This document shows, piece after piece, positions 14,624-41,643 of a stretch of DNA of 44,422 nt (position 1 is the stretch's first letter; each line of letters starts with the position of its first letter). The translations under genes were made by a program, and so were the position numbers. Location of the stretch: sequence record OZ035764.1; one strand, given 5' to 3'. The notes below the pieces were generated by a model. The model did not search any database, had not been told where the DNA came from, and saw nothing but the letters and a program-made list of their open reading frames with translations. Source of the DNA: Kagunavirus 536P11.

Positions 14624-14653
14624 TTTAAAACCCTCTATTGTTGGTGTAAGTGA

Positions 14654-14682
14654 ATAGTACGCTATTATATTGGGGTGCGCAA
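14654..14682 (-). promoter_or_regulatory. early promoter with operator (TTGCGC-17-TACTAT, core AATAG-N4-CTATT)
   Basis: minus strand reads CACCCCAATATAATAGCGTACTATTCACTTA, near-identical to 37391-37423. Confidence 0.55.
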
Positions 14683-31588: not shown

Positions 31589-31617
31589 ACTATAATAGCT
31601 AACTATTCAGGTGTCAA
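31589..31617 (-). promoter_or_regulatory. early promoter with operator (minus strand TTGACA-17-TATAGT, core AATAG-N4-CTATT)
   Basis: plus strand TATAATAGCTAACTATTCAG at 31591-31610. Confidence 0.55.
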
Positions 31618-33864: not shown

Positions 33865-33893
33865 AATATAATAGCTAACTATTCACATGTCAA
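33865..33893 (-). promoter_or_regulatory. early promoter with operator (minus strand TTGACA-17-TATATT, core AATAG-N4-CTATT)
   Basis: plus strand TATAATAGCTAACTATTCAC at 33867-33886; divergent from 33913-33930. Confidence 0.6.
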
Positions 33894-33912
33894 TGGGCTT
33901 TTCTAAAATAAT

Positions 33913-33930
33913 TAATATGGTACTATTCAC
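33913..33930 (+). promoter_or_regulatory. operator-bearing extended -10 promoter (TGgTACTAT)
   Basis: TAATATGGTACTATTCAC about 30 nt upstream of the XRE-like gene start. Confidence 0.45.
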
Positions 33931-37388: not shown

Positions 37389-37421
37389 TTGCACACCCCA
37401 ATATAATAGGATACTATTCAC
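37389..37421 (+). promoter_or_regulatory. early promoter with operator (TTGCAC-17-TACTAT, core AATAG-N4-CTATT)
   Basis: CACCCCAATATAATAGGATACTATTCACTTA, 29/31 identical to the minus-strand promoter at 14651-14682. Confidence 0.6.
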
Positions 37422-38640: not shown

Positions 38641-38682
38641 TGTTATATTGTAACAATAGTTTGAGATTTTACTGAGTGACTT

Positions 38683-38720
38683 ACGCTGCTACACAGCAGC
38701 GTATCATTTTTCTCATTTTT
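38683..38720 (+). terminator. intrinsic terminator (ACGCTGCT-ACAC-AGCAGCGT then T-rich tract)
   Basis: after DUF551-like gene stop. Confidence 0.6.
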
Positions 38721-38797
38721 GTTCTATTTCACGAAACGCAACAATCGAAGCGACTATTGCAGGAGATGCAACAATACACAACACCAATAAAATTTAC

Positions 38798-38830
38798 TTG
38801 CACACTAGGATAGAATAGGCTACTATTCAT
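38798..38830 (+). promoter_or_regulatory. early promoter with operator (TTGCAC-17-TACTAT, core AATAG-N4-CTATT)
   Basis: TTGCAC 38798-38803, TACTAT 38821-38826. Confidence 0.55.
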
Positions 38831-39533: not shown

Positions 39534-39800
39534 ATGGTACAGAGATATGAGTTATCGGAAAAATGGGGCCAGCCAGAGATGGCGAAGTATGACTACGGCG
39601 ACTATGTAGAGTACAACAGCTATAAGGAACTGGACGACTATTACCAGGAACGCATCGCCGATGCCAACGAGGAAATAGAGGTTCTCGTCGCAAGACTGGC
39701 GGAAGTAAACGCCGAGTTACAGAAATACAAAGACCAGTTCCCGGATTACGTCGAGTGTGCGAACTGTGGGTCAATTACACATGTGGAAGGGTTGGAGTAA
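39534..39800 (+). CDS. hypothetical protein
   Basis: ATG 39534 with RBS AGGAG preferred over track start 39528. Confidence 0.45.
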   Translation: MVQRYELSEKWGQPEMAKYDYGDYVEYNSYKELDDYYQERIADANEEIEVLVARLAEVNAELQKYKDQFPDYVECANCGSITHVEGLE

Positions 39801-40105
39801 TGATTGATGTGTATATCTATTGGAGCGGGATAGTTTTTAATTTTACCATTATCCCCGTGATTCTTTGGGTGCTTTGGTGTTTGGTACTGTTCCCCGCCGT
39901 AGAAGCCGTCAGCATGGCGCGGTACTACAGAAGAATCGGGAAAGTGCACGGGGTTAAAGTGCACAACTGGTTCAGGCTATTCCTCGCTAACTATGAGTTG
40001 TTCGGGCGCACATTCACGGCACAGCGGTGCTCTTACGGCTACTGGGAAGGGGTAGGGCAATGGGAAGTATTTCCTGCGGAGGCTGAAAATGAGCCTTGCA
40101 ACTGA
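39800..40105 (+). CDS. membrane protein
   Basis: hydrophobic N-terminal helix FNFTIIPVILWVLWCLVLFPA; ATG overlaps previous stop. Confidence 0.45.
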   Translation: MIDVYIYWSGIVFNFTIIPVILWVLWCLVLFPAVEAVSMARYYRRIGKVHGVKVHNWFRLFLANYELFGRTFTAQRCSYGYWEGVGQWEVFPAEAENEPCN

Positions 40106-40382
40106 CATCCTGAAACGAAGCGGCCTTGCGCCGCTGTCACCGAGAGCTAGAACACAGATATACAAGCGCCGCCATAACGCGCTGTACCCCGAGATTCAGG
40201 CCAGACGCAAAGCGGTCCGCGCCTGTGGATTCCAGAACGGGAAGGCCGTTAACCTCGGTGAGTTTAAAACACAGGAACGGGCAGCTATTGCGAACCGGCT
40301 ATTTAATTACTGGAAATCGCTGGGATACGATGATATTCCGACGAAACCACAGAGGCGACAATACATCTGGAGACATAAATAA
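40089..40382 (+). CDS. hypothetical basic protein
   Basis: 97 aa ORF with RBS GGAGG. Confidence 0.45.
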   Translation: MSLATDILKRSGLAPLSPRARTQIYKRRHNALYPEIQARRKAVRACGFQNGKAVNLGEFKTQERAAIANRLFNYWKSLGYDDIPTKPQRRQYIWRHK

Positions 40383-40457
40383 ACCGTTATTAGGATAATT
40401 CCTACCCGTGGTATCCTCCAGTTACTGCATACTTAATACGCACCTGGAGGATTCATC

Positions 40458-40766
40458 TTGGATAAATTTACTGAAACAGTGACAGGCTGGCTTCTCGCTG
40501 CCGCGCTAGCCGGAGGGGTAATCGGGCTAAGGCAACATAAGTCCGTTATTTCAGGCCCTATTGATGGCTTCTGCTTTATCGCAACTGGCTTCACTTGCGC
40601 CGTATTTGGCGCACCTCTCGCAGCTCAATGGTTTGGCATTACCGGTGAGCGTGAGATAGCTGGCCTCGGATTCATCCTCGCCATTCTCTGGATGCCTATC
40701 TATTCCCGCCTTTCTGGCATCGTATCGGGTGGCGATATTGCACGCCCGGGAGGACCGCATGACTGA
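40458..40766 (+). CDS. holin (multi-TM small membrane protein), TTG start
   Basis: three hydrophobic segments; GGAGG RBS 7 nt before TTG; directly upstream of endolysin. Confidence 0.55.
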   Translation: MDKFTETVTGWLLAAALAGGVIGLRQHKSVISGPIDGFCFIATGFTCAVFGAPLAAQWFGITGEREIAGLGFILAILWMPIYSRLSGIVSGGDIARPGGPHD

Positions 40767-41031
40767 GCTATTCTGGTTTGTCGTAATGCTGGCAATGGGC
40801 GCTTCGTCCCTGTTCAACGTGTATAATGAACGCGTGGACGACGGGCTATTTGGTCGGGTGCTCTATATCCTGACTGCTATTGTCTGCGCCGCCGGATGTA
40901 TCCACCTGTTACAAGGCAGCATGTCGCCTACGCTGCCTGAAACATTAATAACATTAGTTGCGCTGCGCCAGATTCGCCAGGCGTGGCTGTCGTACGGAGG
41001 ACATAAGCGTGTCTCGAAACATTTCAGATAA
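40759..41031 (+). CDS. second small membrane protein of lysis cassette (holin/antiholin-like)
   Basis: two TM segments; ATG overlaps holin stop (ATGACTGA); RBS GGGAGGA. Confidence 0.45.
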   Translation: MTELFWFVVMLAMGASSLFNVYNERVDDGLFGRVLYILTAIVCAAGCIHLLQGSMSPTLPETLITLVALRQIRQAWLSYGGHKRVSKHFR

Positions 41032-41497
41032 TGGGCTGCATTTTACCGCTGCGTTCGAGGGATTCCGTGGCACTGCGTACCGCGCTACGCCGAGTGAGAA
41101 GTACCTGACAATAGGCTACGGAAGCTACGGCCCCCATGTGTATGAAGGACAGAAGATTACACCGGGGCAGGGCCTCCTGTTACTGAATCGCGATATGGCT
41201 AAGGCGGTAGCTGCGGTTGACGCAGCAGCACACCATTCACTGGCACAGGCGCAGTTCGATGCAGTGTGCGACCTGGTGTATAACGCGGGTGCTGGTGTGA
41301 TTGCAGCTACTACAGGCACGGGTAAGGCGCTGCGTTCCGGTGATATTGCGACTCTGCGGGATAAGCTGGCACTGTTCATCAACCAGAACGGCAAACCGTT
41401 ACTCGGCCTGCGCCGTCGAACAGCGGGTCGTCTTGCATTGTTTGATGGCAAACCGTGGCAGGAGGCAGAGGCTATCGGACGCGCGGTGAAAGGTTGA
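41009..41497 (+). CDS. endolysin (lysozyme-like)
   Basis: lysozyme-like motif GLHFTAAFEGFRGTAYR...YLTIGYG; GTG start 41009 with RBS GGAGGA, overlapping previous gene. Confidence 0.6.
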   Translation: MSRNISDNGLHFTAAFEGFRGTAYRATPSEKYLTIGYGSYGPHVYEGQKITPGQGLLLLNRDMAKAVAAVDAAAHHSLAQAQFDAVCDLVYNAGAGVIAATTGTGKALRSGDIATLRDKLALFINQNGKPLLGLRRRTAGRLALFDGKPWQEAEAIGRAVKG

Positions 41498-41563
41498 CAC
41501 CTAAGACTAATCCGACGATACTTAAATCACCTCCTGTTCCATCCCTCTGCTCTCCAGTTTTAT

Positions 41564-41594
41564 CCCGGCCCTGACCCAGCCGGGATTTTTTTTA
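41564..41594 (+). terminator. intrinsic terminator (CCCGGC-N9-GCCGGG then T8)
   Basis: stem-loop followed by TTTTTTTT downstream of endolysin. Confidence 0.6.
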
Positions 41595-41614: not shown

Positions 41615-41643
41615 TTGACTATTACCGTCGACCCTATTATATT
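41615..41643 (+). promoter_or_regulatory. sigma70-like promoter TTGACT-17-TATATT
   Basis: spacing 17; about 35 nt upstream of ATG 41678. Confidence 0.5.

What the first reader, a model, noticed from the sequence alone, without database searches (positions are those of the whole stretch)
40391..40460. Mutually exclusive hairpins over the holin ribosome-binding site
Just upstream of the holin TTG start (40458), stem TCCTCCAG (40413-40420) pairs perfectly with CTGGAGGA (40444-40451), burying the GGAGG Shine-Dalgarno. An alternative stem AGGATA (40391-40396) / TATCCT (40411-40416) overlaps the left arm and would free the RBS when formed. This is the layout of an RNA switch that could gate holin translation and so lysis timing.
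Basis: seen in the sequence. Interest (0 to 1): 0.45.

Follow-up and report, generated by a model that had tools for sequence, protein, structure and literature searches.

The report
Promoter-embedded hairpin guarding the holin gene
A strongly conserved RNA hairpin does bury the ribosome-binding site of this phage's holin gene, but it looks less like a two-state RNA switch than like the bacteriophage T4 lysozyme trick: a promoter sits inside the hairpin, so only the lysis cassette's own transcripts would be translatable and read-through transcripts from upstream genes would stay silent.

Summary
The window is a complete Kagunavirus-type E. coli siphophage genome. The main hairpin is real: ATCCTCCAG (40413-40421) pairs with CTGGAGGAT (40444-40452), 9 perfect pairs and -14.2 kcal/mol, covering the GGAGG Shine-Dalgarno 7 nt before the holin TTG at 40458. 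The hairpin lies in an island (40388-40480) that is 95-100% identical across 60 distinct relatives, against 55-88% in the flanks.

The proposed alternative stem is not supported. It is weak (-5.4 kcal/mol), has about 0-1% ensemble probability, and is broken by G40393A in 25 of 60 relatives without compensation.

A better explanation comes from TGgTATCCT (40409-40417), an extended -10 promoter motif overlapping the left arm. The predicted start near 40424 would give transcripts that lack the left arm and have a freer ribosome-binding site. Transcripts reading through from upstream would keep the site occluded.

The same geometry recurs upstream of homologous holins in five other families with unrelated intergenic sequences: Dhillonvirus, KW1E, eiAU, Scapp and a metagenomic phage. 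There the hairpin is usually a true terminator. This matches T4 gene e regulation. No transcription start has been mapped, so the promoter remains a prediction.

The parts
40089..40382 (+). Last gene (97 aa, unknown function) of the co-directional run of small genes upstream of the lysis cassette. It is the source of read-through transcription.
   Evidence: ORF list; PHROG 9632, unknown function; gene map of a 91%-identical relative. The simple scan finds no terminator-like site in the roughly 350 nt before the holin; its only + strand site between 38703 and 40458 is the terminator at 38682-38703.
40387..40398 (+). Conserved block TTATTAGGATAA in the -35 zone of the predicted promoter (-37 to -26). 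The best -35 candidate is TTAGGA at 40390-40395, which is TTAAGA in 42% of relatives.
   Evidence: Conservation table; retained in the divergent relative L131; promoter scoring. Its function is inferred only.
40391..40404 (+). Small local hairpin UAGGA-UAAU-UCCUA (-4.2 kcal/mol).
   Evidence: Broken by G40393A in 25 of 60 relatives and absent in L131.
40392..40397 (+). Rejected as a functional element.
40409..40417 (+). Predicted extended -10 promoter element TGgTATCCT (hexamer 40412-40417). T40409, G40410 and T40412 are invariant, while the 'n' at 40411 is G or C (58/42%).
   Evidence: The same element is kept in L131 and L036, where the surrounding sequence has diverged.
40413..40421 (+). 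Left (5') arm of the hairpin, ATCCTCCAG. It occupies the -10 and discriminator region of the predicted promoter.
40424..40424 (+). Predicted transcription start (A, 7 nt after the -10 hexamer). It would give a 34-nt 5'UTR lacking the left arm.
   Evidence: Inference from -10 geometry; folding of the truncated RNA. Not mapped experimentally.
40422..40443 (+). 22-nt loop, which would be the first 20 nt of the predicted own-promoter mRNA. It is 93-100% conserved per position within Kagunavirus but completely different in L131.
40444..40452 (+). Right (3') arm CTGGAGGAT, containing the Shine-Dalgarno GGAGG (40446-40450).
40458..40766 (+). Holin gene with a TTG start. The MDK N-terminus is shared with the ATG-initiated Dhillonvirus homologues.
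   Evidence: PHROG 2359 holin, E = 8e-31.
40759..41031 (+). Second holin-like gene, overlapping the end of the first.
   Evidence: PHROG 2508 holin.
41009..41497 (+). Endolysin. The start is uncertain: relatives annotate the equivalent of 40994 or 41009.
   Evidence: Pfam Phage_lysozyme, E = 2.9e-25.
41563..41593 (+). Strong intrinsic terminator (TCCCGGC-9 nt-GCCGGGA followed by T8) closing the lysis cassette.
   Evidence: Read directly from the sequence. The scan tool missed it because its loop is 9 nt.

Best explanation
The hairpin is an insulator that makes holin expression depend on the lysis cassette's own promoter.

Transcripts that enter from the upstream run of small genes contain both arms. 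The 9-bp stem forms and buries the GGAGG, so the holin is poorly translated; the overlapping downstream lysis genes may be too, if they are translationally coupled. In most related phages the equivalent hairpin is followed by a U-run and would also terminate those transcripts.

An extended -10 promoter (TGgTATCCT, 40409-40417) overlaps the left arm, so the arm lies in the -10 and discriminator region. RNA polymerase starting there (about A40424) makes an mRNA without the left arm. That mRNA cannot form the hairpin and its ribosome-binding site is more accessible.

This is the logic shown experimentally for T4 gene e (lysozyme), soc, 49 and I-TevI.

Shown here: the hairpin, its stability, its conservation, and the recurrence of the promoter-plus-hairpin geometry in six families whose intergenic sequences are unrelated.

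Inferred: that the -10 motif is an active promoter, the start site, and the effect on translation and lysis timing.
For: 1. The hairpin is real and stable.

2. Positions 40388-40480 are 95-100% identical in 60 distinct Kagunavirus sequences, against 55-88% in the flanks. All nine stem pairs are kept. The only arm changes are C40419U and A40420G (both giving G.U pairs), one A.C mismatch at the inner end in L087, and stem-extending changes in L031 and L036.

3. T40409, G40410 and T40412 are invariant while 40411 is freely G or C. That is the TGnT pattern of an extended -10, and these bases lie outside the stem. The 70%-identity relative L131 keeps TGgTATCCT and both arms, although its loop and the spacer upstream of the -10 differ.

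4. Homologous holins (34-50% identity) in five other families with unalignable intergenic DNA show the same layout:
- Dhillonvirus: TGaTATAGT, arm AGTCCCAGTGA, T6, ATG.
- L072: TTGGAC-17-TGtTAATAT, arm ATCCCCCGTG.
- KW1E: TTGACC-17-TACTAT, arm TCCCCGG, T8.
- eiAU: TGtTACCAT, arm GGCCCTGTA.
- Serratia Scapp/Smarc4: TAATCT, arm TGGCCCC.
In each, the -10 end plus 7 nt falls between 2 nt before and 3 nt after the 3' end of the left arm. The predicted 5'UTRs are 25-34 nt.

5. The empirical p for a promoter score that high in that 7-position register is 0.0005-0.023 per family. Combining the five non-discovery families by Fisher's method gives about 2e-8 (my calculation). In Dhillonvirus, L072, KW1E, Serratia and the Kagunavirus relative L036 it is the best-scoring promoter within 200 nt.

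6. Opening the ribosome-binding site costs 2.6-15 kcal/mol more in long transcripts than in those starting at the predicted site, in all ten sequences tested. In the window the cost is about 10 versus about 3.9 kcal/mol for 40446-40460.

7. Context: a co-directional run of small genes lies upstream with no terminator-like site immediately before the holin, and a strong terminator follows the endolysin, so the cassette looks like its own transcription unit. Erwinia phage RF1, whose holin follows a divergent region with no co-directional upstream genes, has no hairpin over its Shine-Dalgarno.

8. A composite scan of all ORF starts in the window finds this layout at only three sites. The holin is the only credible one.

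9. Precedent: T4 gene e and others (PMC3014915, section 29).
Against: - No transcription start site data exist for any of these phages.
- In the window itself the promoter is only moderate: -10 TATCCT matches 4 of 6, the best -35 matches 3 of 6, the score is 6.3 and the empirical p is 0.016.
- Two other sites within 200 nt upstream score slightly higher: TGGAGA-17-TAGGAT ending at 40396, and TTAATT-17-TACGAT ending at 40331. The first would give a transcript containing the whole hairpin.
- The null distribution for promoter scores comes from the whole, mostly coding, genome. AT-rich intergenic DNA would score higher, so the p-values are optimistic.
- There is no two-sided compensatory change within Kagunavirus. 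The structural support is conservation plus recurrence of the structure, not classical covariation.
- A sigma-70 promoter would be active from the start of infection, so the model does not by itself explain lysis timing.
- Overlap of terminator and promoter could simply reflect genome compaction.
Confidence: 0.55

Rival explanations
1. Constitutive translational attenuator. All holin mRNAs start upstream of the hairpin, from an upstream-operon promoter or a promoter such as TAGGAT at 40391-40396. The hairpin, together with the weak TTG start, simply keeps holin synthesis low at all times and so sets the lysis clock. This resembles the Shine-Dalgarno-sequestering 5'UTR hairpin of IS200 tnpA.
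For: The hairpin is stable and conserved. TTG is invariant. An alternative -10 candidate upstream of the hairpin scores slightly higher in the window (7.6 against 6.3), and TAAGAT is kept in L131. Precedent: IS200 (PMC4513863).
Against: - It does not explain why T40409, G40410 and T40412 are invariant outside the stem while 40411 varies.
- It does not explain why a -10-like hexamer abuts the left arm in five further unrelated intergenic sequences.
- In Dhillonvirus, L072, KW1E and eiAU the hairpin is a canonical terminator abutting the start codon. It would abort, not attenuate, any mRNA that contains it, so those holins need a start inside the hairpin.
- The -35 of the TAGGAT candidate lies in the upstream gene, which is replaced in about a third of relatives.
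Confidence: 0.2
2. Leaky or degenerate intrinsic terminator with no role in translation. The hairpin is the end of the upstream transcription unit, and overlap with the Shine-Dalgarno and the promoter reflects genome compaction.
For: Four related families, and the divergent Kagunavirus relative L131 (tail UUUAUUUU), have the hairpin followed by a U-run. The window tail TTCATCTT still has 5 T in 8.
Against: - In the window the loop is 22 nt and the U-tract is interrupted, so it does not meet the terminator scan criteria.
- The Serratia phages have a separate canonical terminator about 60 nt upstream and still keep a second, non-terminator hairpin over the Shine-Dalgarno, with a -10-like hexamer abutting it. 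This argues that occlusion itself is selected.
- Whatever its origin, the physical consequence, an occluded Shine-Dalgarno on long RNAs, follows from the pairing.
Confidence: 0.13
3. One reading: an RNA switch in which AGGATA/TATCCT forms instead of the main stem and frees the ribosome-binding site, possibly triggered by a factor.
For: The two stems share 40413-40417, so they are mutually exclusive in principle.
Against: - The alternative stem is -5.4 against -14.2 kcal/mol.
- Its probability is 0.00 in full RNA and about 0.01 in nascent RNA.
- It is broken by G40393A in 25 of 60 relatives without compensation.
- A 6-bp repeat of this kind is about what chance gives.
- There is no Rfam match.
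Confidence: 0.04
4. DNA-level element. The 9-bp inverted repeat is a binding site (operator) for a dimeric phage or host regulator flanking the start site.
For: The arms are invariant, and the phage has other operator-like palindromes.
Against: - Arm spacing varies from 8 to 22 nt among families and the arm sequences are unrelated.
- In most families the repeat is followed by a U-run, which is an RNA-level signature.
- The changes seen in the left arm are exactly those that keep G.U pairing, which is meaningful only in RNA.
Confidence: 0.05

Closest known systems
T4 gene e (lysozyme) translational control, also T4 soc, 49 and I-TevI (McPheeters et al. 1986; reviewed in PMC3014915)
   Same: A lysis gene lies downstream of earlier co-directional transcription. 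A hairpin sequesters the Shine-Dalgarno or start codon on the long transcripts. A promoter lies within or next to the DNA encoding the 5' strand of the hairpin, so its transcripts lack that strand and are translated.
   Different: T4 uses gp55-dependent late promoters (TATAAATA), which give built-in timing. Here the candidate is a host sigma-70 extended -10 promoter with no known temporal regulator. The protected gene is the holin, not the endolysin. In most sister families the hairpin doubles as an intrinsic terminator. Nothing here has been tested experimentally.
Protection of IS elements from outside transcription: IS10 fold-back inhibition, and the IS200 left-end terminator plus Shine-Dalgarno-sequestering hairpin (PMC4513863)
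   Same: A terminator and/or hairpin at the 5' edge of a dangerous gene prevents expression from impinging transcripts. In IS10 (from my own knowledge) the element's own promoter starts inside the structure.
   Different: The genetic context differs. In IS200 the Shine-Dalgarno hairpin is part of the element's own 5'UTR, making it a constitutive attenuator. That corresponds to the rival explanation, not the favoured one.
Lambda S gene sdi stem-loop with dual-start motif (from my own knowledge; no source retrieved here)
   Same: An RNA stem-loop at the holin ribosome-binding site influences holin translation and lysis timing.
   Different: sdi partitions ribosomes between two start codons (S107 antiholin and S105 holin). 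This holin has a single start (M-D-K, no second Met or start nearby). Lambda late transcription is controlled by Q antitermination at pR'-tR'.
Riboswitch or RNA thermometer with mutually exclusive helices
   Same: Only the occlusion of the Shine-Dalgarno by a helix.
   Different: There is no stable alternative helix, no conserved aptamer and no Rfam match.

Membership tests
T4 gene e-type promoter-selected RBS occlusion | A stable hairpin sequesters the Shine-Dalgarno and/or start codon on long transcripts | tested here: met
   9-bp stem, -14.2 kcal/mol, pair probabilities 0.85-1.0; opening the ribosome-binding site costs about 10-12 kcal/mol.
T4 gene e-type promoter-selected RBS occlusion | A promoter positioned so that transcription starts 3' of the hairpin's 5' strand | tested here: inconclusive
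   TGgTATCCT overlaps the left arm and the predicted start, 40424, is 3 nt past the arm. The empirical p is 0.016 in the window, and the same geometry occurs in five other families (p 0.0005-0.023 each). This is sequence prediction only; no start site has been mapped.
T4 gene e-type promoter-selected RBS occlusion | Co-directional upstream transcription that reads into the gene | tested here: inconclusive
   A run of + strand small genes from about 37.07 kb to 40382. The last terminator-like site before the holin is at 38682-38703. No RNA data.
T4 gene e-type promoter-selected RBS occlusion | Short transcripts are translated much better than long ones | not testable with these tools
   Only thermodynamic prediction: a difference of 4.5-6 kcal/mol in the window and up to 15 in relatives.
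   -5.4 against -14.2 kcal/mol; the alternative stem has probability 0.00-0.016.
   Main helix 99.3% of cells paired. The alternative helix loses a G-C pair in 5 of 16 representatives and 25 of 60 distinct sequences, with no compensation.
   Rfam 15 scan at E <= 10 gave only two chance-level hits elsewhere in the region.
Intrinsic (Rho-independent) terminator | G+C-rich stem with a short loop (about 3-10 nt) | tested here: not met
   The stem is G+C-rich, but the loop is 22 nt in the window and the scan did not call it. The criterion is met in L131 (9 nt), Dhillonvirus (8-12), KW1E (8) and eiAU (7).
Intrinsic (Rho-independent) terminator | Uninterrupted U-tract immediately after the stem | tested here: not met
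   The window tail is UUCAUCUUG. Relatives have U6-U8, UUUAUUUU or UUUUCUU.
Lambda S-type sdi / dual-start holin control | Two closely spaced in-frame start codons giving holin and antiholin | tested here: not met
   The N-terminus is MDKFTETVTGW. The next Met is at residue 79 and no second start is nearby.

The most novel reading that the evidence does not exclude
Enterobacterial siphophages of at least six genera or lineages share an undescribed lysis-cassette 'entry gate'. A host-type promoter has its -10 and G+C-rich discriminator region doubling as the 5' arm of a terminator or Shine-Dalgarno-occluding hairpin.

Beyond insulating the holin from early transcription, the C-rich discriminators (CCAGTT, CCCAGT, CCCCCG, TCCCCG) resemble those of stringently controlled promoters. 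Holin transcription, and hence lysis timing, could therefore be tuned by host physiology (ppGpp/DksA, supercoiling). Alternatively it could depend on an unidentified phage activator binding the conserved TTATTARGATAA block in the -35 zone.
Probability: 0.12. Interest if true: 0.7.

Novelty: new member of a known kind. Interest (0 to 1): 0.45.

Why it matters
Holin dosage sets the time of lysis, and premature holin synthesis kills the infection. How virulent siphophages that lack their own RNA polymerase, and have no known late regulator, keep lysis genes quiet while transcribing neighbouring early genes in the same direction is largely unexplored.

If the model holds, a compact and portable device does this job in many coliphage genera used for phage therapy (Kagunavirus, Dhillonvirus). 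The device is a promoter nested in a terminator or RBS-occluding hairpin.

It would also give a simple handle for engineering lysis timing, and a design for insulating toxic genes in synthetic constructs. It further shows that the T4 gene e strategy is not peculiar to T4-type late promoters.

Tried and rejected
- Rfam scan of 39800-41000 at E <= 10: nothing relevant.
- Outer helix of the MFE fold (40406-40412 with 40455-40461): not conserved, because G40411C breaks it without compensation.
- A third partner for the left arm (CTGGAG 40367-40372): it lies in the upstream gene, which varies or is replaced in relatives.
- GATAAT (40394-40399) as the -10: destroyed in L131 (GATACC), and its -35 is not conserved.
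- TGNTATCCT as a repeated phage promoter motif: only this one copy in the genome.
- Prophage or bacterial homologues: the genome-contig scan found none.
- The metagenome scan and the 5.8-billion-protein search added only the same families, plus a distant high-GC Oxalobacteraceae group (L074/L075 type) that lacks the layout.
- Pectobacterium phage Wc4-1 (L128): weak and unclear, not counted.
- Trans-pairing of the putative ~65-nt RNA from 41529-41593 with the holin leader: not better than shuffles (21 of 300).
- Literature search for transcriptome or start-site data on Kagunavirus, Dhillonvirus or Guernseyvirinae: none usable.
- Classical covariation within Kagunavirus: the region is too invariant, with no two-sided changes.

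Full report
**What the window is.** The 44,422-bp window is a complete genome of a Kagunavirus-type (Guernseyvirinae) E. coli siphophage. It is 87-91% identical over the lysis region to more than 100 deposited phages.

The finding lies in the 75-nt gap between a 97-aa gene of unknown function (40089-40382) and the lysis cassette. The cassette consists of:
- the holin, 40458-40766, with a TTG start (PHROG 2359 'holin', E = 8e-31);
- a second holin-like gene, 40759-41031 (PHROG 2508);
- the endolysin, about 41009-41497 (Pfam Phage_lysozyme, E = 2.9e-25).

The TTG start is supported by homology. Dhillonvirus homologues begin ATG-GAT-AAG (MDK...) where this phage has TTG-GAT-AAA.

**Checking the observation.** The main inverted repeat is present and is one pair longer than reported. 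ATCCTCCAG (40413-40421) pairs with CTGGAGGAT (40444-40452): 9 perfect pairs with a 22-nt loop.

Both of its left-arm coordinates are one base low. GGAGG (40446-40450) sits in the right arm, 7 nt before the TTG.

The isolated hairpin folds at -14.2 kcal/mol. The 93-nt intergenic RNA folds at -23.8 kcal/mol, z = -2.9 against dinucleotide shuffles. In a 221-nt read-through RNA every stem pair has probability 0.87-1.0 and the Shine-Dalgarno bases are unpaired with probability at most 0.01.

A perfect 9-bp stem is not remarkable in itself: the window has about 13 of them, against roughly 6 expected by my estimate. Its placement and conservation are what matter.

The alternative stem AGGATA (40392-40397) / TATCCT (40412-40417) also exists. 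It is a 6-bp, A/U-rich repeat of the kind chance supplies.

**The alternative stem fails every test.**
- It is worth -5.4 kcal/mol, against -14.2 for the main stem.
- Its pair probabilities are 0.00 in full-length RNA. They are only about 0.01 in nascent RNA that ends before the right arm is made, because AGGA prefers the local hairpin UAGGA-UAAU-UCCUA.
- Among 60 distinct Kagunavirus sequences, 25 carry G40393A. This removes one of its two G-C pairs without any compensating change, and the variant no longer folds into the stem at all.

The region therefore does not have the layout of a two-state RNA switch. It also matches no Rfam family.

**The hairpin is under strong constraint.** I collected about 75 Kagunavirus loci from IMG/VR, metagenomes and GenBank. 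Positions 40388-40480 are 95-100% identical in 60 distinct sequences, whereas the flanking coding DNA is 55-88% identical.

Seven of the nine stem pairs never vary. The only arm changes are:
- C40419U and A40420G, in L131 and L039, both giving G.U pairs;
- one T40445C, in L087, giving an A.C mismatch at the inner end;
- changes in L031 and L036 that extend the stem to 11-13 pairs.

There is no two-sided compensatory change. Within the genus the evidence is therefore conservation, not covariation.

**A promoter motif overlaps the left arm.** Immediately 5' of, and overlapping, the left arm is TGgTATCCT (40409-40417). This is the extended -10 pattern TGnTAnnnT.

T40409, G40410 and T40412 are invariant, while the 'n' at 40411 is G in 58% and C in 42% of sequences. 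These bases lie outside the stem, so an RNA-structure model gives no reason for that pattern.

The most divergent Kagunavirus-like relative is L131, whose holin is 70% identical. It keeps TGgTATCCT, both arms and the TTG, although its loop and the spacer upstream of the -10 are completely different. Its tail has become UUUAUUUU, which is terminator-like.

A start 7 nt after the hexamer would be A40424, 3 nt beyond the left arm. That RNA cannot form the hairpin. The cost of opening 40446-40460 falls from about 10 to about 3.9 kcal/mol.

**The same geometry recurs in unrelated sequences.** Homologous holins (34-50% identity) occur in other siphophages whose intergenic DNA cannot be aligned with this one. 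Each shows a -10 hexamer abutting or overlapping the 5' arm of a G+C-rich hairpin whose 3' arm carries the G-rich Shine-Dalgarno just before the start codon:

| Family | Sequence layout |
|---|---|
| Dhillonvirus (HK578, Sodalis SO-1 and many others) | cgTGaTATAGTcccagtga-gctaaaac-ttactgggacTTTTTTATG; a subtype (L071/L126) has a C insertion in the left arm matched by A>G in the right |
| Metagenomic phage L072 | TTGGAC-17-TGtTAATATcccccgtg-13 nt-cacgggggatTTTATTTTG |
| KW1E_UTAR | TTGACC-17-TACTATtccccgg-8 nt-tcggggaTTTTTTTTATG |
| Edwardsiella phage eiAU | TGtTACCATggccctgta-7 nt-tacggggccTTTTCTTATG |
| Serratia phages Scapp and Smarc4 | TAATCTggcccc-...-ggggcta-tcca-TTG, with a separate canonical terminator about 60 nt upstream |

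In all of them the -10 end plus 7 nt falls between 2 nt before and 3 nt after the 3' end of the left arm. That base is a purine in eight of the ten sequences. The predicted leaders are 25-34 nt.

I scored promoters with a simple position-weight model, using frequencies recalled from memory. I took as null the best score in any seven consecutive positions on either strand of the window. The arm-abutting site then has an empirical p of:
- 0.016 for the window;
- 0.0023 for HK578 and 0.0007 for L071;
- 0.0014 for L072;
- 0.0005 for KW1E;
- 0.023 for eiAU;
- 0.0185 for Serratia.

Treating the window as the discovery case, Fisher combination of the other five gives about 2e-8 (my calculation). This is optimistic, because intergenic DNA is more A/T-rich than the null.

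In Dhillonvirus, L072, KW1E, Serratia and L036 this site is the best-scoring promoter within 200 nt of the start. In every sequence, opening the ribosome-binding site costs 2.6-15 kcal/mol more in the long RNA than in the RNA starting at the predicted site.

One control points the same way. In Erwinia phage RF1 the homologous holin follows a divergent region with no co-directional upstream genes, and no hairpin covers its Shine-Dalgarno. A distant high-GC group (L074/L075) also lacks the layout.

**Genomic context.** A related annotated genome shows about 16 small + strand genes running from a divergent region at about 37.07 kb into the holin. The scan finds a strong terminator at 38682-38703 and no terminator-like site immediately upstream of the holin.

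Downstream of the endolysin there is a strong terminator (41563-41593; G+C stem plus T8), followed by near-consensus promoters. The lysis cassette therefore looks like a self-contained unit embedded in co-directional transcription.

I also scanned every candidate ORF start in the window for the composite of promoter score, stem and start codon. This returned three sites, of which only the holin is a credible gene start.

**Interpretation.** The best-supported mechanism is the one established for T4 gene e, and for soc, 49 and I-TevI. Long transcripts from earlier promoters form a hairpin that hides the ribosome-binding site. A promoter lying in the DNA for the 5' strand of that hairpin makes transcripts that lack it and are translated (PMC3014915, section 29).

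Here the promoter would be a host sigma-70 extended -10 type. The protected gene is the holin. In most sister lineages the hairpin doubles as an intrinsic terminator; in the window the 22-nt loop and the interrupted U-tract make termination doubtful, so occlusion of the Shine-Dalgarno would be the main effect.

I put this at about 0.55. The rivals are:
- a constitutive attenuator present in all holin mRNAs (0.2), as for the IS200 tnpA leader (PMC4513863);
- a degenerate terminator with no translational role (0.13);
- a DNA operator (0.05);

**Weak points.**
- No transcription start has been mapped in any of these phages.
- The window's own promoter is only moderate, and two other candidates within 200 nt upstream score slightly higher in the window. 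One of them, TAGGAT at 40391-40396, would give a transcript containing the whole hairpin.
- A sigma-70 promoter does not by itself provide late timing. Timing may come from holin accumulation, from the weak TTG start, or from an unidentified factor acting on the conserved TTATTARGATAA block in the -35 zone.
- The near-invariance of the 22-nt loop within Kagunavirus, and of the first seven holin codons including synonymous sites, is not explained by the hairpin alone.

**Novelty and score.** The device is a new member of a known kind: RBS occlusion bypassed by an internal promoter. I found no description of it for these phage genera. It is broader and more regular than a single-genome curiosity, but it remains mechanistically unproven. 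Interest: 0.45.

Noticed in passing
window 14651-14670 (+), 31590-31609 (-), 33866-33885 (-), 33910-33929 (-), 37401-37420 (-), 38810-38829 (-): There are six copies of a quasi-palindromic 20-mer, TGAATAGTAnCCTATTATAT (AATAG/CTATT arms), against 0 expected by chance. It is the motif that the fBC-Eco01 paper listed as 'phage promoters' from PHIRE, although these phages encode no RNA polymerase. It overlaps -10-like TATTAT sequences and looks like an operator for a phage regulator at several promoters.
   Followed up: partly
window 41494-41593: A near-consensus promoter (TTGACA-17-GATACT) overlaps the endolysin stop codon and is followed about 40 nt later by a strong terminator (41563-41593, T8). 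This predicts an RNA of about 65 nt containing ACCUCCU and CUCCAGUU, the latter an 8-mer shared with the hairpin's left-arm region (40416-40423). Predicted pairing with the holin leader was no better than shuffles (21 of 300). The layout resembles lambda pR'-tR' (6S RNA).
   Followed up: partly
window 41615-41643: A second strong sigma-70-like promoter (TTGACT-17-TATATT) lies just after that terminator. It heads the run of small genes that leads to the terminase and structural genes.
   Followed up: no
window 38682-38830: A strong + strand terminator (TACGCTGCT-ACAC-AGCAGCGTA plus a T-run) is followed by a candidate promoter, TTGCAC-17-TACTAT (38795-38823). One copy of the 20-mer operator-like motif overlaps that promoter's spacer and -10. 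This is probably the regulated promoter of the gene block that reads into the holin.
   Followed up: partly
window 40458-40480: The first seven codons of the holin are essentially invariant, including synonymous positions, in 60 distinct relatives, while the rest of the gene is 80-90% identical. The constraint appears to act at the nucleotide level on the translation initiation region.
   Followed up: partly
L134 (Edwardsiella phage eiAU, NC_042029) locus 1468 versus annotated 1522: The annotated holin start is probably 54 nt too far downstream. The ATG directly after the hairpin and U-run gives MDLWQKV..., matching the MDK/MDL N-termini of the homologues.
   Followed up: partly
window 40380-40387 and upstream; loci L009, L011, L014 and others: The gene upstream of the conserved island comes in at least two unrelated versions among relatives (ends ...ggagacataaataaaccg versus ...caagattattaccaaacaac). 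The island therefore starts at a mosaic recombination boundary near 40388.
   Followed up: no
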